From a virus (lineage: Duplodnaviria > Caudoviricetes): a DNA stretch of 36,350 nucleotides. A program made the position numbers and the translations under genes. The notes beneath the pieces were generated by a model, which saw only the letters and a list, made by a program, of their open reading frames with translations, did no database searches and was not told the origin of the DNA. Within the stretch, counting starts at the first letter, position 1. The number at the start of each line of letters is the position of its first letter. Location: the IMG/VR virus record IMGVR_UViG_3300032155_000031, positions 1-36,350 of that record; one strand, 5' to 3'. Below are positions 8,800 to 27,404 of the stretch, piece after piece.

Positions 8800-9078
8800 A
8801 TGAACAAGGTCCAGCTGATCGACGCGATCAAGAACGAGCAGCCCAACATCACCAAGTCCGACATCGAGCGCGTGTTGGACGCGTTCGTGGAAATCGTCAC
8901 CGAGAGCCTGACGCATGGCGAACGCGTGGTGCTGGTCGGCTTCGGCTCCTTCACAGTCAAGGACAAGGCAGCCCGCGAGGGACGCAACCCCAAGACCGGC
9001 GAGGTCGTCGAGATCGAAGCCCGGCGCGTGGTCAAGTTCAAGCCGGGCTCGGAGCTCGCCGAGCGCGTCAACTCTTGA
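8800..9078 (+). CDS. HU-family DNA-binding protein
   Basis: MNKVQLIDAI...LVGFGSF...AREGRNPKTGE...KFKPG signature. Confidence 0.95.
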   Translation: MNKVQLIDAIKNEQPNITKSDIERVLDAFVEIVTESLTHGERVVLVGFGSFTVKDKAAREGRNPKTGEVVEIEARRVVKFKPGSELAERVNS

Positions 9079-9140
9079 TGCGAAACCGCCCTGCGGGGCG
9101 GTCGCCGGGCGGTGGCGCGCCCGGCCTGATGAGCAGCCGA
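9079..9140 (+). ncRNA. Type II hammerhead ribozyme, copy 1; predicted cleavage after C9103
   Basis: GAAA 9082-9085; stem III ACCGCCC/GGGCGGT; GUC triplet; stem I GCCGGGC/GCCCGGC; CUGAUGA 9126-9132; short open stem II TGC/GCA. Confidence 0.88.
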
Positions 9141-9152
9141 GAGGAAAGCAAG

Positions 9153-9689
9153 ATGGAATACCAGCATTTCATTGGCGAAGGGCCGGAGGCCACTGCTCTC
9201 ATCAAGCAGGTGATGGCGGGGGTTAAGGCGTTTCAAGAGGCTGCCAGAACTCTTGAAGTCAAAACCGGTCTGAAGTTCTGGAGAACACGAGAGGGGATCG
9301 GCGGGCCCATGTTGGAGAACGGGATTGATAACGCCGAGGCTCGGAAGCGCGGGTTGAAGTTCAGATGCTTCGTCCCAGGCGAAAAGGCCTTTCATTGCTT
9401 CCTGCCTCACATGGGCACCAAAGCCGGGAGAGAGATGTCGGCAGAGATCGACAAGATCAACCGTCTCCGCTGTGACGCGAGCGACATGATCATCAAAGCC
9501 ACCGGGATGGAGATGACGGTGTACGACGGACGGGTAATTGCCCATTCCTGCGCGGGAGCCGCTGACGGCAAGATCGTGGTCAAAATCCCCATCAAAGGCA
9601 CGGATGGCGGCGATGACGCCATGCCGACACCCCCCGCTTGGTTTCGCCCTGCCAAGGAGTCCGAGGCCCTTGCCGTATTCGGGAAGTAG
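9153..9689 (+). CDS. Hypothetical protein between the two ribozymes (weak resemblance to phage Eac/DUF5420-type proteins)
   Basis: GAGGA RBS right after ribozyme 1; 178 aa; lower GC3 than neighbours; stop codon abuts ribozyme 2. Confidence 0.75.
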   Translation: MEYQHFIGEGPEATALIKQVMAGVKAFQEAARTLEVKTGLKFWRTREGIGGPMLENGIDNAEARKRGLKFRCFVPGEKAFHCFLPHMGTKAGREMSAEIDKINRLRCDASDMIIKATGMEMTVYDGRVIAHSCAGAADGKIVVKIPIKGTDGGDDAMPTPPAWFRPAKESEALAVFGK

Positions 9690-9751
9690 CGAAACCGCCC
9701 CCACGGGGGCGGTCGCCGGGTGGTGGCGCGCCCGGCCTGATGAGCAGCCGA
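9689..9751 (+). ncRNA. Type II hammerhead ribozyme, copy 2; predicted cleavage after C9714
   Basis: GAAA 9691-9694; stem III ACCGCCCC/GGGGCGGT; GUC; stem I GCCGGGT/GCCCGGC; CUGAUGA 9737-9743. Confidence 0.85.
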
Positions 9752-9760
9752 TGGAGAACC

Positions 9761-10260: not shown

Positions 10261-10631
10261 TGAACACGAGACAGATCCTGGCCACGGTGATGGCGGACCG
10301 CTTCGCGCAGGGCGCCCGGTGCATCGGTGTAGACATGCTGCGCTGCCTGCTCAACAGCCGTCTGCCGGATGGACGCTGGCTGACGCCGGAGGAGTTCCGG
10401 GAGCTGCTCGACGCCGTCGGCGCGAAGACGCTCCGAAACCGTGGGCTGACGGTCGAGCTGACCCCGGCCTTCGTGGCCTCCCTGCAGCTTGGAGCGGACG
10501 AGGACGGCTCGCTGCGGCAAAAGGCGGGTGAGAGCGGCTCCCGCATGGACGCCCTGGTGCGGCCTATGGAGTGCCCCTGGGCCACGGGCAAGATCACGGT
10601 CGAGTCTCCCTGGGAGCGTTACGTCATGTAG
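10260..10631 (+). CDS. Hypothetical protein
   Basis: AAGGAGG RBS; TGATG coupling. Confidence 0.6.
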   Translation: MNTRQILATVMADRFAQGARCIGVDMLRCLLNSRLPDGRWLTPEEFRELLDAVGAKTLRNRGLTVELTPAFVASLQLGADEDGSLRQKAGESGSRMDALVRPMECPWATGKITVESPWERYVM

Positions 10632-10675
10632 GTGGGGTGTACACCGAGTGTACACCTCCCCGGAGAACGGTTGAA

Positions 10676-12082
10676 ATGAACACCGCACCAGCCTGTCACC
10701 GCACCCCTGCGCCACGCTGCGCCAGCTCTCTGGCTGAGCTTGCGTCTGCTCCCGTGTCCGGCCTCCCGCCGCATGACCGGGAGGCGGAGCAGGCGGTGCT
10801 GGGCGGCGTGCTGCTTTCCAACAAGACCCTTTCGCTTCTGGCCTCGGTCGTGCGCGATGAGGATTTCTTCTTCCCGGCGCACCGCATGATCTGGCAGGCA
10901 ATGCTGGGGCTCTTCGAGGCTTCGCAGCCCGTGGATCTGCTGACCGTGGCGGACACCCTGGCGCGAGCCGAGACGCTGGAAGCGGCAGGAGGCCGGGCCT
11001 ACCTGGGCGAGTTGGCCGCGGCAATCGTCCCGTCGGCCAACGCAGAGTATTTCGCCGGGCGCGTCAGGGAGTTGGCCGGGCTGCGCCAGCTCATGGGCAC
11101 CGGTGTGCACATGGTGCGCGAATCCCAGGCTCCTGGCGCTGAACTTTCCGATCTGCTGGACCGGACGGGCGCTGCTCTGCTGCGCATCGAGTCGCGGCGT
11201 CAGGACACGGCGATCTTCGAGTCCGGCTCCCTGGTCACGGAAACCTTGAATCGCCTCGCCGACCTCGCCGGAAAGACCGGCGACGTCACCGGCGTGACGA
11301 CCGGCTACAGCCGTCTGAACGAGTACACGGCTGGCTGGCAGCGTTCGGACCTCATCATCCTGGCGGCGCGCCCTTCCATGGGCAAGACGGCGTTGGCGCT
11401 CAACTTCGTGCGTAACGCAACCCTTTCGGGCACGGCGGCCGCAGTCTTCTCGCTGGAGATGAGCAAGGAACAGTTGATGGCCCGCCTGCTCTGTATGGAC
11501 GGCGAGATCGACCTGCAGAGGTTCAGACGCGGCTGGTTGCACGACGACGAATGGAGCCGCCTGCGCGCCGCCGGAGCGAGACTTTCCGCCCTTCCGCTCT
11601 TCATCAACGACACCCCGGCGCTGAACGTCATGGAGATGCGCGGCATGTGCCGCAGGCTTGCCAGGGAGCGCGGCCTTGGCCTGGTCGTGGTGGATTACCT
11701 GCAGCTGATGCGCGCGGCCAGGCGCGTGGACAACCGGGAACAGGAGATCGCGGAGATCTCTCGCAGCCTGAAGGCCCTGGCCAAGGAGCTGAACATCCCG
11801 GTGATCGCGCTGTCCCAGCTCAACCGCAAGGTCGAGGAACGCTCGAACCGTCGGCCCATGCTGTCCGACCTCAGGGAAAGCGGCAGTCTGGAGCAGGATG
11901 CCGACGTGATCGCGTTCATCTACCGGGATGAGGTGTACAACAAGGAGTCTCCCAAGAAGGGGACTGCGGAGATCATCATCGGCAAGCAGCGCAACGGGCC
12001 GATCGGGGAAATCGAGTTGCGTTTCGAGGGGCCTTCGGGGAGATTCCTGGAGCTCTACGAACCCATACCCGAGAGGACATGA
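10676..12082 (+). CDS. dnaB: Replicative DNA helicase DnaB (phage-borne)
   Basis: PPHDREAEQAVLG, AARPSMGKT, FSLEM, VVDYLQLM, LSQLNR, SDLRESGSLEQDAD, KQRNGP motifs. Start codon uncertain. Confidence 0.95.
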   Translation: MNTAPACHRTPAPRCASSLAELASAPVSGLPPHDREAEQAVLGGVLLSNKTLSLLASVVRDEDFFFPAHRMIWQAMLGLFEASQPVDLLTVADTLARAETLEAAGGRAYLGELAAAIVPSANAEYFAGRVRELAGLRQLMGTGVHMVRESQAPGAELSDLLDRTGAALLRIESRRQDTAIFESGSLVTETLNRLADLAGKTGDVTGVTTGYSRLNEYTAGWQRSDLIILAARPSMGKTALALNFVRNATLSGTAAAVFSLEMSKEQLMARLLCMDGEIDLQRFRRGWLHDDEWSRLRAAGARLSALPLFINDTPALNVMEMRGMCRRLARERGLGLVVVDYLQLMRAARRVDNREQEIAEISRSLKALAKELNIPVIALSQLNRKVEERSNRRPMLSDLRESGSLEQDADVIAFIYRDEVYNKESPKKGTAEIIIGKQRNGPIGEIELRFEGPSGRFLELYEPIPERT

Positions 12083-20723: not shown

Positions 20724-21309
<586 letters not shown>

Positions 21310-21310
21310 C

Positions 21311-23587
21311 ATGCTGCTCCCCCCCAAGCTCGGCATCTTCGGAGAGGTCGCAGTGCGTGAGGCCCTGGGGGGCGATTACGTGCAGATCGGCGACCTTTTG
21401 CGCGGGGCTCTGCGGCGTCTGCTGCAGATGGCTGACGACGCCGACCCGTTCCCCTTCCTGAGGGCTCTGTTCGACTCCTCGCTGGTCGTGGAGCGCGGCG
21501 GCAAGCTCTTCCGCTACCCCTACACCATCACGGGCATGGAAGTGTCTTTCGGAGACGTCGAGCCCGTGTATGTGACCTTCGCGCCCGTTTCCTCGGAGCC
21601 CGCCAGGGAGGCCAAGGGGGCGTTCCTGGAGGCCAAGGAGGAAGGCACGGGGGCCAAGTCCTTCCGGATCCGGGTGATCCGGGCGGGCATCTCGGGCAAC
21701 GGCAACTACTACCCCGACGCCGCGCTGCGCGAGGCCGTGTCCATGTTCGAGGGCGCGCGGGTGTTCGTCAAATCCGACAAGGAGCATCTCGCCGGAGAAG
21801 GCAAGGACGTGCGCAATCTGGTCGGCGCGCTGGCCAATGTCGCGTTCGTCGAGGGTGCCTCCCCGGATACGGGAGCGGTCCTCGCGGATCTGCGCTTGCT
21901 CGAACCCCACGGGGAGATCGCGGTCAAGCTGCGTGAGGCGTGGGATCAGGGCATGACCGGGCTGTTCGGCTTCTCCATCGACGCCGACGCCAAGGTCAAG
22001 ACCCGGGTCGTGGCCGGACGCAAGCTGCGCGAGGCCGTCCAGTTCACCAAGGTCTCGTCCGTGGACCTCATCGTCGAGCCCGGGGCCGGCGGGGAAATCG
22101 TGAATTTCATCGAAGCCAAGGAGGAATCCGACATGTTTCGCAAACGTATGATCCGCCTGATCGAGGCCAAGCGCCCCGAGCTGCTGCGTGACAAAGACGT
22201 GGACAATCTCAGCGACGAGGACATCGAGAAGATGGTCGAGGCGCTGACGTCCGGCCCGGCACTCGGCGACCGGGGCGAGGCCCGTGACGCCGGAGCGACC
22301 CGCGAGGACATCGCGGCCGCCATGAAGATGGTCGAGGCGCGCGCCTCCATGCGCGTGTCCATCGCCGAATCCGGCCTTCCCCAGGCCGCCAGGGACCGTC
22401 TGCGCAAGGACTTCGAGGCCATGGAGCGCTTCACCGAATCCGAGGTCGAGCAGCGCATCAAGGACGAGCGCGAGTACCTCGGCCGCTTCGCCGAGTCCGG
22501 CCGCATCCAGGGCCTGGGCGACGGCCGGATCGAGCCCGGCGAGAGCCGCGCCGAGAAGGTCTCCAGCATGCTGGATGCCTTCTTCGACCAGGGTCACAAA
22601 GACCACGGGGCTGTACGCTCCTTCAAGGAGGCGTACATCGACATCACCGGCGACCGCCTGGTCACCGGCCTGCGCTCCAACTGCGACTCCGCCCGGCTGC
22701 GCGAGGCCCTGGGCACCTCGGAGCTTTCCGACGTGCTGGGCAGCGCCCTGCGCCGTCGCATGATCGCCGACTACCGCACCCCGGACATCTACAGCATCTG
22801 GCGCAACGCCGTGGTCATCGACAACGCTGTGGACTTCCGCACCCAGGAGCGCGCCCGCATGGGCGGCTACGGCGATCTGCCGGGCGTCAACGAGGCCGGC
22901 GACTACCAGGCGCTGACCTCGCCGAGCGACGAGAAGGCGACCTTCGCCGTGACCAAGCGCGGCGGCCTGGAGTCCATCACCCTCGAAGCCATCAAGAACG
23001 ACGACGTGGCGGCCATCCGCCAGGTGCCCGTGAAGCTCTCCCGGGCCGCCAAGCGGACCCTGGCCAAGTTCGTCTTCGACTTCGTGCGCACCAACCCGAC
23101 CATCTACGACAGCGTGGCCTTCTTCCACGCCACGCACGGCAACCTGGGCGCGGCCGCGCTCGACGCCACCACCTACGCCGCCGCCCGGCTGGCCATGCTC
23201 AAGCAGACCGAGCTCTCCTCCGCCGACCGCCTGGGCATCGGGCCGCGCTTCCTGCTCGTTCCGGCCGACCTGGAGGAGGCCGCCGCGAACATCTTCCGGC
23301 GCAACACCAACCAGGACAAGACCTTCATCCAGTCCCTGTCGCCGGACATCCTGCCGATCTGGTACTGGACCGACGCCAACGACTGGGCTGTCCTCGCCGA
23401 TCCCATGGACATCCCCACCATCACCGTGGGCTTCCTGGACGGCAACGAGGAGCCCGAGATCTTCGTGCAGGACAGCCCGACCGGGGGCAGCATGTTCTCC
23501 TCGGACAAGCTGACCTGGAAGATCCGGCACATCTACGGCGGCGCGGTGACCGACTATCGCGGCGCTTACAAGGCCGTGGTCGCCTAA
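21311..23587 (+). CDS. Fused prohead protease / scaffold / major capsid protein (Mu gpT-type capsid domain)
   Basis: IRAGISGNGNYYP and GFSID...SVDLIVEPGAGG protease motifs; acidic helical middle; capsid motifs ITLEAIKNDD, FFHATHGNL, FLLVP, GFLDGNEEP, KIRHIYGG..DYRG. Confidence 0.88.
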   Translation: MLLPPKLGIFGEVAVREALGGDYVQIGDLLRGALRRLLQMADDADPFPFLRALFDSSLVVERGGKLFRYPYTITGMEVSFGDVEPVYVTFAPVSSEPAREAKGAFLEAKEEGTGAKSFRIRVIRAGISGNGNYYPDAALREAVSMFEGARVFVKSDKEHLAGEGKDVRNLVGALANVAFVEGASPDTGAVLADLRLLEPHGEIAVKLREAWDQGMTGLFGFSIDADAKVKTRVVAGRKLREAVQFTKVSSVDLIVEPGAGGEIVNFIEAKEESDMFRKRMIRLIEAKRPELLRDKDVDNLSDEDIEKMVEALTSGPALGDRGEARDAGATREDIAAAMKMVEARASMRVSIAESGLPQAARDRLRKDFEAMERFTESEVEQRIKDEREYLGRFAESGRIQGLGDGRIEPGESRAEKVSSMLDAFFDQGHKDHGAVRSFKEAYIDITGDRLVTGLRSNCDSARLREALGTSELSDVLGSALRRRMIADYRTPDIYSIWRNAVVIDNAVDFRTQERARMGGYGDLPGVNEAGDYQALTSPSDEKATFAVTKRGGLESITLEAIKNDDVAAIRQVPVKLSRAAKRTLAKFVFDFVRTNPTIYDSVAFFHATHGNLGAAALDATTYAAARLAMLKQTELSSADRLGIGPRFLLVPADLEEAAANIFRRNTNQDKTFIQSLSPDILPIWYWTDANDWAVLADPMDIPTITVGFLDGNEEPEIFVQDSPTGGSMFSSDKLTWKIRHIYGGAVTDYRGAYKAVVA

Positions 23588-24769: not shown

Positions 24770-25335
24770 GCTCCGCCATCCGCGCCGCCATCGTGAGCAG
24801 CCTGCAGGCCGTGTCAGGCATCGGGTCCGTGCACGACCGTGAGCGCTTCGCCGCACGAGAGAAGGATCTGGCTGATCTGTACCTCACCGGGGGCAAGCTG
24901 GCTGGCTGCCATGTACGACGTGTCAGCGTGCGCGAGGCGCCCTACAGCACCCTGTACAACACCGTGTACACCCGCTGGCGGATCAGCCTCTTCGCCTCGT
25001 TCCTGGACGCGGAGTCGAGCGAGATCCTGTTCGACGACCTGGTCGATCGCATCAGGGCCAAGTTCCGCAACAGCGATCTCGGCGGCCTGGTCGAGTCCAT
25101 CGGGGATGAGGGCGAAGCCGGGGTGCAGCTGGATGATTCTGGCCCGGTCATGTTTTCGGGAGTGCTCTGTCACTCCGCCCGCCTGTCCCTGACCACGCGT
25201 CACAAGCAGCCGAAGAGCGAGGATCCCGACGACGCGACGGCCTGCCAGCTCTCCGGCATAGACATTTCCTGGGATCTAGCAGGGACCGATTCCACCGAGG
25301 AAGCACGAGACAGCATCAACATGGAGGAATCCTGA
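24766..25335 (+). CDS. Putative tail terminator/completion protein
   Basis: GSVHDRER, PVMFSGVLCHSARL motifs; lies upstream of the sheath gene. Confidence 0.65.
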   Translation: MSSAIRAAIVSSLQAVSGIGSVHDRERFAAREKDLADLYLTGGKLAGCHVRRVSVREAPYSTLYNTVYTRWRISLFASFLDAESSEILFDDLVDRIRAKFRNSDLGGLVESIGDEGEAGVQLDDSGPVMFSGVLCHSARLSLTTRHKQPKSEDPDDATACQLSGIDISWDLAGTDSTEEARDSINMEES

Positions 25336-25511
25336 TGCAGACCTTTTTCATCAAGCCCAAGGCCGGACTCCGGGTGCTGGACCCGGACATGACACCGCCG
25401 CAGCCGTTGCCCCCTGAGGGCAAGGACGTGCCCCGCAACGCCTACTGGCTGCGTCGCCTCGCCGCTGGCGATGTGGCCGAGGCCAAGCCCGCCAAGGGCC
25501 GCAAGGAGTAA
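25335..25511 (+). CDS. DUF2635 family protein (Mu gp38-like)
   Basis: Not in the ORF track (58 aa): MQTFFIKPKAGLRVLDP...LPPEGKDVPRNAYWLRRLAAGDV. Confidence 0.88.
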   Translation: MQTFFIKPKAGLRVLDPDMTPPQPLPPEGKDVPRNAYWLRRLAAGDVAEAKPAKGRKE

Positions 25512-25514
25512 GCG

Positions 25515-27017
25515 ATGACCATCAGCTTCAACGAGATACCGAACACCGTCCGGACTCCCTTCGTGTATGTGGAGTTTGATTCCTCCAAGGCCGTGCAGGG
25601 GCCGTCGCTGATGCCCTACAAGCTGCTGGTCATCGGTCAGCGCCTGGCTGTCGGAAGCGTTCCCGCTCTGCAGCCGGTGCGCGTGACGAGCAAGGCGCAG
25701 GCCCAGGACTACTTCGGCGAGGGCAGCCAGCTGGCCAGGATGTTCGAGGCGCTTCTGCAGAACAACGACTGGACCGAGACGTTGGCGGTGGCCCTGGACG
25801 ACGACGGCGCGGGCGTGGCCGCCACGGGCTCGATCACCTTCGGTGGCACCGTGACCGCGCCGGGCACCCTGGCGCTGTACATCGGAGGCCGCAGGATCGC
25901 GGTGGGCGTCTCGGCCGCGCAGGCCCCGGCGAGCATCGCGACGGCCGTGGCCGCCGCCGTCAACGCCCGCACCGATCTGCCCGTGACCGCTGCCGTTGAC
26001 GGCACGGACACGGCGAAGGTGAACATCACCGCCCGCAACAAGGGCGAATCGGGCAACGGCATCGACGTCCGGACCAACTACTACTCCGGCGAGGCCCTGC
26101 CGACCGGGCTGACTGTGACCTTCACCGGCGGCGGCACAGCCTCGGGCACCCCGACGCCTCCCGACGAGGTGGCCGCGGCCATGGCCGCCGTGACCTCGTA
26201 CTACGGGAACATCGATCCCGCGAGGCCGATGCAGACCCTGCCTCTGACCGGCGTGCTGCCGGCTCAGGAGAACAAGGGCATGCGCCTGTCCGGCGGCACC
26301 GGCAATCCCGACATCTCCGGCGTCTGGGCGGCCGTGGGCGACGAGCACTACAACGTGCTGGCCTTCCCCTACACCGACGGCGCCAACATGACCTCGCTCA
26401 AGACCGAACTGGCGGACCGCTGGGGGCCGATGCGCATGATCGAGGGGCTGGCCTGCGTCGCTGCGTTCGGCACTCACAGCGAGCTGGGCACGCTGGGCGA
26501 CGGGCACAACAGCCCGCATGTGTGCATCGCCGGGTGCGGCGGCCCCTTCACGCGGCAGGAACGCAACCTTCTGCTCTTCGACGGCGTCTCGACGCTCTAC
26601 GCCGATGCCGATGGCACGGTGCGCATCGAGCGGGCCATCACGACCTACAAGGAGAACGCCCTGGGGGCCGAGGACATGGCCTATCTCGACGTGGAGACGG
26701 TCCTGACCCTGGGCTATCTCCGCTACGATCTCCGAAACTACCTGCTGCGCAAGTACCCCAGGCACAAGCTGGCGTCGGACGGCACCAGGTACGGTCCCGG
26801 CCAGGCCATCGTCACGCCCAAGGTCATCCGCGCCGAATGCGTGGCCTGGGCGAGGATGATGGAAGAGAAGGGCCTGGTCGAGGGGCTCGATCAGTTCAAG
26901 GAGGATCTGCTCGTGGAACGGAACCAGAGCGATCCCTGCCGGCTGGACATCTACCTGCCGCCGGATCTCGTCAACCAGCTGCGCGTCACGGCCGTCCAGG
27001 TCGGGTTCCGCCTGTAA
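25515..27017 (+). CDS. Contractile tail sheath protein (Mu gpL-like) with two internal blocks apparently in swapped order
   Basis: ISFNEIP..VYVEFD, FGEGSQLARM, DPARPMQTL, ERNLLLFDG, IERAITTY, YPRHKLA, PDLVNQLR motifs; see findings. Confidence 0.92.
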   Translation: MTISFNEIPNTVRTPFVYVEFDSSKAVQGPSLMPYKLLVIGQRLAVGSVPALQPVRVTSKAQAQDYFGEGSQLARMFEALLQNNDWTETLAVALDDDGAGVAATGSITFGGTVTAPGTLALYIGGRRIAVGVSAAQAPASIATAVAAAVNARTDLPVTAAVDGTDTAKVNITARNKGESGNGIDVRTNYYSGEALPTGLTVTFTGGGTASGTPTPPDEVAAAMAAVTSYYGNIDPARPMQTLPLTGVLPAQENKGMRLSGGTGNPDISGVWAAVGDEHYNVLAFPYTDGANMTSLKTELADRWGPMRMIEGLACVAAFGTHSELGTLGDGHNSPHVCIAGCGGPFTRQERNLLLFDGVSTLYADADGTVRIERAITTYKENALGAEDMAYLDVETVLTLGYLRYDLRNYLLRKYPRHKLASDGTRYGPGQAIVTPKVIRAECVAWARMMEEKGLVEGLDQFKEDLLVERNQSDPCRLDIYLPPDLVNQLRVTAVQVGFRL

Positions 27018-27038: not shown

Positions 27039-27404
27039 ATGGCCAACGATCTTCGCGCCGGCATCTTCTATCTGAAGGTGGACGGCACCATGTACGACGC
27101 CAAGGGAGCCTTCACCTACAGCCTCGGCCTGCCCAAGCGGGAGAGCATCGTGGGCGCGGACGGGCCGCACGGCTTCAAGACCACGCCCCAGGTTCCCTAC
27201 ATCGAAGGCGAAATCACCGACGCGCGGGATCTCGATCTGAAGAAGCTCTGCGAGACCGTGGGCGCCACGGTCACGCTGGAGCTTCAGAACGGCAAGGTGA
27301 TCGTGCTGCGCGAGGCCGCGTATTGCGGCGACGGCAAGGTGCAGACCGAAGAAGGCAACATCGCGGTGCGCTTCGAGGGCAAGAGCGCCGAGGAGGTCCG
27401 CTGA
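27039..27404 (+). CDS. Tail tube protein (Mu gpM-like)
   Basis: AGIFYLKVDG, RESIVGADGPHGF, PYIEGEI, ELQNGK, VRFEG. Confidence 0.9.
   Translation: MANDLRAGIFYLKVDGTMYDAKGAFTYSLGLPKRESIVGADGPHGFKTTPQVPYIEGEITDARDLDLKKLCETVGATVTLELQNGKVIVLREAAYCGDGKVQTEEGNIAVRFEGKSAEEVR

What the first reader, a model, noticed from the sequence alone, without database searches (positions are those of the whole stretch)
26121..26549. Tail sheath gene is internally permuted: conserved blocks occur as A-C-B-D, fully in frame
Established (recalled Mu gpL-family order): ...TVTxT-x-(M/L)SGG.GNPD...RWGP...NSPH(V/L)xI-x-xSGxPTPP...DPARP.QTL...LP.....-x-FT..ERN.LL. Seen in sequence: after TVTFT comes ASGTPTPP...DPARPMQTL...PAQENK (26139-26276, 46 aa), then LSGGTGNPD...RWGP...NSPHVCIA (26286-26531, 82 aa), then FTRQERN. 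The two blocks are swapped. They are joined by three short Gly-initiated linkers (GGGT 26127-26138, GMR 26277-26285, GCGGP 26532-26546), about 9 residues more than the canonical order needs, with no stop or frameshift. The swapped region is flanked by an 8-bp direct repeat GCGGCGGC (26128-26135, 26536-26543), and every junction contains a GGC codon. Inference: this is a circular permutation of the B-C segment, as expected from excision as a circle and re-entry at another point, or from duplication followed by deletion. It could be a re-wired sheath fold, a scrambled gene that is unscrambled at the DNA, RNA or protein level as a switch for tail assembly, a dead allele, or an assembly artefact. 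I saw no such shuffling in the other virion genes.
Basis: partly seen in the sequence, partly recalled or inferred. Interest (0 to 1): 0.88.

Follow-up and report, generated by a model that had tools for sequence, protein, structure and literature searches.

The report
Naturally rewired phage tail sheath protein
This phage's tail sheath gene has two internal segments swapped in order, the same swap is kept intact in a family of related phage genes, and the protein is predicted to fold into the normal sheath shape with three rewired loops, which makes it a rare traceable case of a protein changing its chain path.

Summary
ORF 25515-27017 (500 aa) is a Mu gpL-type sheath in the order A-C-B-D, where Mu and most relatives have A-B-C-D. 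It is not an artefact or a dead allele. 33 of the 120 best homologues share the order; pooled searches gave 40 distinct permuted proteins among 409, with the same breakpoints and purifying selection. Five host genomes hold only the permuted form. Programmed unscrambling is unsupported: the 8-bp repeat is not conserved, junction codons vary freely, no gene is specific to these loci, and no locus holds both orders. AlphaFold2 folds the permuted chain confidently across all three junctions. 407 residues superpose on Mu sheath at 2.7 A, against 458 for a canonical control; the difference is about block C. Best reading: a stable non-circular permutation that likely works as is. It likely arose once and spread by recombination, since whole-gene trees reject one clade while the linkers are shared. 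Function is untested; no cultured phage with it was found. The precedent is the BPP-1 capsid protein.

The parts
25515..27017 (+). Tail sheath gene, Mu gpL type, 500 aa, order A-C-B-D
   Evidence: PF04984 in two stretches, PF17481, PF17482; phrog_165, four stretches
25515..26126 (+). Block A (aa 1-204): N-arm, first part of the subtilisin-like domain, beta-sandwich domain
26127..26138 (+). Junction 1 (GGGT): new loop from the last sandwich strand into block C; length and sequence vary across the family
26139..26276 (+). Block C (aa 209-254; Mu 294-333): TPP, long helix 216-233, DPARP, LPxxG; moved ahead of B
26277..26285 (+). Junction 2 (GMR): conserved G-M-R/K-L; predicted to form strand 253-257, replacing the second half of the canonical strand 199-207
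26286..26531 (+). Block B (aa 258-339; Mu 210-~291): GGxxNPD ... RWGP ... NSPH, alpha/beta part of the subtilisin-like domain
26532..26546 (+). Junction 3 (GCGGP): family motif G-T-G-G-P, the last Gly in 40 of 40
26547..27017 (+). Block D (aa 345-500): end of the subtilisin-like domain, C-terminal domain and C-arm
25335..25511 (+). DUF2635 small gene, the usual upstream neighbour (context)
27039..27404 (+). Tail tube gene, colinear with relatives (context)

Best explanation
The gene is a stably inherited, internally swapped (non-circularly permuted) variant of the Mu-type tail sheath that is likely translated as written and is predicted to fold into the ordinary sheath shape, with three short glycine loops re-routing the chain. 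Shown: the order, the family, selection, and the absence of a second sheath in five host genomes. Predicted: A, B and D sit as in Mu, and the GMR linker completes the strand at the foot of the beta-sandwich. Inferred: helix C packs in its usual place, and the N- and C-arms, which lie outside the swap, assemble and contract the sheath as in Mu. Origin (inferred, about 55% within this reading): one tandem duplication of B-C followed by loss of the first B and the second C, then spread among Mu-like phages by homologous recombination in the flanking and core sequence, so that the junctions share one ancestry while the blocks are mixed with canonical relatives.
For: Family: 33 of 120 top homologues, 4 of 150 listed 50%-cluster representatives, 22 of 296 fetched locus records, which collapse to 15 distinct loci, 40 of 409 distinct proteins pooled. 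Hosts named by the records are Alphaproteobacteria and Deltaproteobacteria/Desulfovibrionaceae, including two single-chromosome records. Selection: pN below pS over the swapped segment in 8 of 8 pairs (0.12-0.29 against 0.27-0.62, uncorrected); 25 of 31 listed in-gene differences of run X4 fall on third codon positions. Conservation profiles of B and C track the canonical ones (entropy rho 0.70 and 0.83; A 0.78, D 0.83). Sole sheath in 5 of 5 genomes searched, twice in G002. Model: mean pLDDT 84; 86, 94 and 90 in the ten-residue blocks holding the junctions; 94-96 over residues 211-230. 407 residues at 2.7 A on 9khy_a against 458 at 1.9 A for canonical P0014. Beta-sandwich matches to the same unrelated chains end at residues 261-267 in the permuted model and 209-213 in the canonical one (4nx9, 1el6, 9f4b), so the start of B docks where it normally does. 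[quoted passage not shown] Shared junction features: F/Y/W at 203 in 35 of 40 against I/V in 90 of 101 near canonical; M at 256 in 28 of 40, L at 258 in 37 of 40. Overlapping ends: Mu 294-295 are matched by both B and C; canonical 288-291 and 203-204 appear twice by eye.
Against: No experiment shows these proteins in virions. Of 71 matching records among 50,697 GenBank phages, the 25 listed showed no permuted order; the top hit was checked directly and is canonical. All examples are prophages or metagenome contigs. Two of the 15 loci are damaged in block A (L004 frameshift near codon 35, L084 truncated remnant). The permuted model is weaker than the control at the arms (pLDDT under 50 at 1-28 and 486-500; 34 against 87 sequences in the alignment). 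The single-origin step is not shown: one clade is rejected for D (p-AU 0.0002), A+D (5e-5) and the whole gene (5e-5), borderline for A (0.051), neither rejected nor shown for B+C (0.26; delta lnL 2). Site patterns in B and C lean to local canonical neighbours in 9 and 8 of 10 non-independent quartets. No duplication intermediate was found.
Confidence: 0.82

Rival explanations
1. The protein works in permuted form as above, but the same swap arose independently several times, or reverted several times, at the only three loops that tolerate it.
For: The label needs 6 changes on the whole-gene tree, 5 forced by starred branches. B and C site patterns follow local canonical neighbours. Residual permuted-canonical affinity is as high between A+D and B+C (0.31) as between A and D (0.21). 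Gly-Gly codon pairs near the breakpoints offer microhomology (inference).
Against: The same derived linker residues (F203, G-M-R/K-L, G-G-P) and the same +10 length occur in all lineages. B+C alone does not reject one clade. Canonical rows were chosen as nearest neighbours, which favours incongruence. The local signal fades within 5 residues of a junction. This rival concerns origin only; its share lies inside the best explanation's confidence.
Confidence: 0.2
2. A scrambled gene that is restored to A-B-C-D by a programmed DNA, RNA or protein rearrangement, as a switch for tail assembly.
For: Three Gly-rich junctions with an 8-bp repeat in the window; two hammerhead ribozymes elsewhere in the genome show RNA processing in this phage. 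Protein-level splicing cannot be tested with these tools.
Against: Third-position identity at the junctions (0.56, 0.55, 0.45) is no higher than in the blocks (0.48-0.56) over 15 genes; the longest J1/J3 repeat in the other 14 genes is 4-9 nt and differs in sequence. None of 48 ORF clusters shared by four or more permuted loci is a sense-strand gene missing from the 127 long canonical loci. No locus or genome has both orders. Junction 1 varies in length. The permuted chain folds well as it stands.
Confidence: 0.04
3. The permuted sheath is expressed but changed or impaired in function (altered hinge or contraction, or carried by prophages that spread by transposition alone).
For: The model shortens the strands that tie the beta-sandwich to the core (199-207 becomes 200-203 plus 253-257). 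No cultured example was seen. Two of 15 loci are damaged.
Against: Purifying selection across about 55% mean pairwise identity; conservation of B and C is not lower than in canonical genes; tube gene in 14 of 14 and hub gene in 12 of 14 other loci, some of which are short.
Confidence: 0.12
4. Assembly artefact or one-off dead allele.
For: None beyond the oddity. No listed contig bridges junction 1 by 31 letters on both sides.
Against: A Logan protein 96% identical has the same order (P0001). A contig of run X2 bridges junction 2 with no differences, and one of run X4 bridges junction 3 with 59 differences in 1227 nt. 40 distinct permuted proteins.
Confidence: 0.01

Closest known systems
Phage Mu tail sheath gpL/gp39 (PDB 9KHY; PHROG 165; PF04984, PF17481, PF17482)
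   Same: All four blocks homologous; same operon position between DUF2635 and tube; predicted fold superposes at 2.7 A over 407 residues.
   Different: B and C swapped, three new loops, about 10 extra residues; the strand at the foot of the beta-sandwich is predicted to be built from two separate chain segments.
BPP-1 / epsilon15 major capsid protein topology of the HK97 fold (PMC3863775, passages seen)
   Same: A phage virion protein with two internal elements swapped non-circularly, N-element fixed, same architecture.
   Different: Capsid, not sheath. There, no sequence similarity links the two topologies, which the authors say obscures the origin; here both orders coexist at 60-79% identity per block. 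That case is a solved structure; this one is predicted.
Multiple loop permutation, triple-point chain switching, protein rethreading (PMC4882587, passages seen)
   Same: Secondary structure elements kept, three connections exchanged.
   Different: The paper's experimental case is an engineered DHFR; it calls natural triple-point switching potentially rare because three crossover points must be close. Closeness of the points was not measured here.
Non-circular permutations in DNA methyltransferases and hammerhead ribozymes (PMC10085705, passages seen)
   Same: Natural within-domain reordering of conserved motifs; described there as rarer than circular permutation.
   Different: Enzymes or RNA, not a polymeric contractile structure. 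The methyltransferase paper itself was not held.
Programmed gene unscrambling (ciliate scrambled genes, shufflons, permuted tRNA; recalled, except permuted tRNA, which is in the passages)
   Same: Segments out of order in the DNA.
   Different: No conserved sites, no dedicated enzyme and no restored form were found; the frame is open and selected as written.

Membership tests
Mu gpL-type tail sheath | Subtilisin-like, beta-sandwich and C-terminal sheath domains | tested here: met
   all three Pfam families above their cut-offs; phrog_165 E 4e-167
Mu gpL-type tail sheath | Position in a Mu-like tail operon (DUF2635, sheath, tube, chaperone, tape measure, baseplate) | tested here: met
Mu gpL-type tail sheath | Sheath fold | tested here: met
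   predicted model only: Z 32.4, 2.7 A, 407 aligned on 9khy_a; Foldseek TM 0.75
Mu gpL-type tail sheath | Colinear order A-B-C-D | tested here: not met
   hence filed as a permuted variant, not a plain member
Mu gpL-type tail sheath | Polymerises around the tube and contracts | not testable with these tools
   needs virions or expressed protein
Non-circular permutation (segment swap) | Internal segments exchanged, direction kept, termini unchanged | tested here: met
Non-circular permutation (segment swap) | Swapped elements keep their places in 3D | tested here: inconclusive
   A, B and D superpose and the start of B docks canonically; the place of C is inferred from pLDDT 94-96 and its conserved profile
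Non-circular permutation (segment swap) | Three crossover points close in space | not testable with these tools
   coordinates not available; short high-confidence linkers imply it
Programmed unscrambling or recombinational switch | Conserved DNA or RNA sites at the junctions | tested here: not met
Programmed unscrambling or recombinational switch | Dedicated recombinase or processing gene linked to the locus | tested here: not met
   within up to 10 kb on each side; an unlinked or host enzyme is not excluded
Programmed unscrambling or recombinational switch | Restored form detectable in DNA, RNA or protein | tested here: inconclusive
   none in 297 records or 5 genomes; only contigs were laid; RNA and protein not examined
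Circular permutation of the whole protein | New N- and C-termini | tested here: not met
   termini align with Mu

The most novel reading that the evidence does not exclude
Mu-like phages carry two interchangeable wiring alleles of one sheath gene, and the switch between A-B-C-D and A-C-B-D has happened repeatedly (at least five changes on the gene tree) at identical breakpoints. That would be a protein topology changing back and forth between close relatives, possibly kept because the rewired hinge alters folding, contraction or mixing of subunits between co-infecting phages.
Probability: 0.25. Interest if true: 0.85.

Novelty: new variant of a known kind. Interest (0 to 1): 0.66.

Why it matters
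Natural non-circular permutations inside a domain are described as rare (PMC10085705, PMC3863775), and in the best phage case the two topologies share no sequence, so their origin cannot be traced. Here both orders exist at 60-79% identity per block, with readable breakpoints and dozens of members. That allows a direct test of how a three-point rewiring arises, spreads and is tolerated in a polymeric contractile machine. It also marks three loops of the sheath core that accept cutting and rejoining, which is useful for folding studies, and it warns that colinear alignments and annotation miss such cases: the records carry ordinary sheath names.

Tried and rejected
Junction repeat as a recombination site: not conserved, rejected; no larger repeat family at the junctions among those listed. 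Internal translation start at the junction-2 Met: a Shine-Dalgarno-like stretch of -5 kcal/mol or stronger lies upstream in 7 of 10 genes against 22% of 109 other internal ATGs, but it is no stronger than synonymous recodings in any of 15 genes and Met is missing in 12 of 40 proteins; set aside as a by-product of Lys/Arg/Glu codons. Split forms (A-C plus B-D): a search of proteins under 275 aa gave 2 hits among 108 candidates, both canonical fragments. Duplication intermediates: none in 297 records, 120 top hits or 150 representatives; longer proteins had insertions in A only. Only the best 120 of 4553 and 150 of 4635 hits were seen. The joints come from one 10.6-kb contig of run X4 whose matched pieces are 39 nt closer together than in the window, which fits a canonical relative; not read as unscrambling. 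No RNA holder was listed. A simple 'C-B cassette hopping as one unit', suggested by a FastTree run with untrimmed blocks (1 change, support 59), was not upheld after trimming (6 changes) or by quartets. The first mixture-model tree did not finish. The viral structure library gave only distant sheaths. Earlier scan notes: nothing by sequence or words. Literature: eight full-text searches, seen as listings, showed no report of a permuted sheath; most subscription journals and all supplements were unseen.

Full report
Setting. The window is a 36-kb virus record of a Mu-like phage: repressor, MuA, MuB, Gam, terminase, portal, capsid gene, and a tail operon through baseplate and fibre genes. The sheath ORF is 25515-27017, 500 aa.

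Observation. Against the solved Mu sheath, query 3-205 matches Mu 4-209, 210-249 matches 294-333, 258-343 matches 210-295 and 341-499 matches 336-494. The swap adds about 10 residues (median span 141 in 36 permuted proteins against 131 in 228 canonical ones). None of the 30 other window ORFs with BLAST hits shows off-order matches.

It is a family. Of the 120 best homologues, 33 have the same order and 87 are canonical. Four scans of viral, metagenome and genome collections gave 296 locus records; 22 are permuted and collapse to 15 distinct loci (by matching contig lengths and coordinates), 267 are A-B-C-D, 4 are partial and 3 have a split or extended A match. Of 150 listed cluster representatives, 4 are permuted. 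Pooled and thinned at 95% identity, 40 of 409 are permuted; these searches were seeded with the permuted form, so the true share is lower. Named hosts are Alphaproteobacteria and Deltaproteobacteria/Desulfovibrionaceae. The variant sits behind two different head modules. In 5 of 5 host genomes searched it is the only Mu-type sheath; G002 has two copies, identical over at least 12.4 kb. Contigs from other studies bridge junctions 2 and 3; junction 1 is crossed by only 10 letters. Two loci are damaged in block A. No permuted example was seen among the 25 listed GenBank phage hits.

It is selected as protein, not as DNA sites. Over the swapped segment pN is below pS in 8 of 8 pairs, and 25 of 31 listed differences in a near relative are at third positions. 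B and C keep the canonical conservation pattern. Junction residues are conserved: Gly at 343 in 40 of 40, Pro at 344 in 33, Leu at 258 in 37, Met at 256 in 28, and an aromatic at 203 in 35. Their silent positions are not: third-base identity is 0.56, 0.55 and 0.45 at the junctions and 0.48-0.56 in the blocks (15 genes; L087 left out as identical to L086). GCGGCGGC is not shared by the other genes and occurs 24 times in this 65% GC window. No sense-strand gene is specific to permuted loci, and no locus carries both orders. DNA-level unscrambling therefore has no support. RNA and protein were not examined.

Predicted structure. AlphaFold2 with the 34 permuted sequences gives mean pLDDT 84, with 86, 94 and 90 in the blocks holding the junctions; the canonical control gives 93. 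On Mu sheath the permuted model aligns 407 residues at 2.7 A and the control 458 at 1.9 A. The gap of 51 is about block C, as expected if the aligner keeps chain order (inferred). The canonical strand 199-207 is predicted to be split into 200-203 from A and 253-257 from junction 2; beta-sandwich matches to the same unrelated chains end at 261-267 instead of 209-213, so B starts in its usual place. That helix C lies in its usual groove is inferred from its confidence and conservation, not seen. In Mu, contraction is a rigid-body rotation carried by the N- and C-arms (PMC11915804, passages); the swap leaves these alone, so normal assembly is plausible. The arms themselves are poorly predicted in the permuted model.

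Origin. Segment ends overlap: Mu 294-295 are matched twice, and by eye against P0014 canonical 288-291 and 203-204 each appear twice, with three new residues at junction 1. This fits duplication of B-C with loss of one B and one C better than clean excision and re-entry, but no intermediate was found. The history is mixed. With 30 permuted rows and 21-23 canonical rows picked as nearest neighbours (L084 left out throughout; gappy L196 and L249 left out; quick LG+G4 trees), one permuted clade is rejected for D (p-AU 0.0002), A+D and the whole gene (5e-5), borderline for A (0.051) and not rejected for B+C (0.26). B+C cannot choose between the two A+D-derived trees. Quartet counts in B and C lean to local canonical neighbours (9 and 8 of 10, not independent), and this signal weakens beside the junctions. 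The shared linkers argue for one origin, the trees for later exchange with canonical genes. I favour one origin with recombinational spread and mixing; repeated origin or reversion stays open.

Comparison and verdict. It works like Mu gpL by sequence, context and predicted fold, but fails the colinear-order test, so it is a variant. The closest kind is the non-circular permutation of the BPP-1 capsid protein (PMC3863775, passages) and triple-point chain switching (PMC4882587, passages); PMC10085705 (passages) calls such swaps rarer than circular ones, while PMC2213659 (abstract) finds non-sequential structural alignments common across folds. Eight literature searches, seen as listings, showed no permuted sheath. 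New variant of a known kind; interest 0.66, mainly because both topologies are close enough in sequence to trace and test.

Noticed in passing
window 9078-9142 and 9687-9753, + strand: Two type II hammerhead ribozymes (Rfam RF02276, 67 and 61 bits) in the early region. Each begins at the stop codon of the gene before it; together they bracket a reading frame of about 178 codons (about 9154-9689) behind the HU-like gene. The two copies are near-repeats.
   Followed up: partly
window 10571-12082: The phage carries a full DnaB-type helicase gene, which is not part of the usual Mu gene set (recalled).
   Followed up: no
window 21293-23587: One 764-aa ORF with the capsid domain in its last third (PF25209), likely a fused protease-scaffold-capsid gene. 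It is shared by 5 of 14 other permuted loci, while others have a different head module.
   Followed up: partly
window 26260-26285: A Shine-Dalgarno-like stretch before the junction-2 Met. It is common in the family but explained by the amino acids; an internal start giving a B-D fragment is not excluded.
   Followed up: yes
L086 and L087 (G002, 2.47 and 3.77 Mb): Two copies of the prophage tail region in one complete chromosome, identical over at least 12.4 kb, which suggests recent transposition.
   Followed up: partly
L290, L294, P0240, P0241, P0256: Canonical-order sheaths with large insertions inside block A.
   Followed up: no
L084:5490-8236 and L004:10001-10102: A decayed prophage remnant with a truncated permuted sheath, and a frameshift near codon 35 in another permuted gene.
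   Followed up: partly
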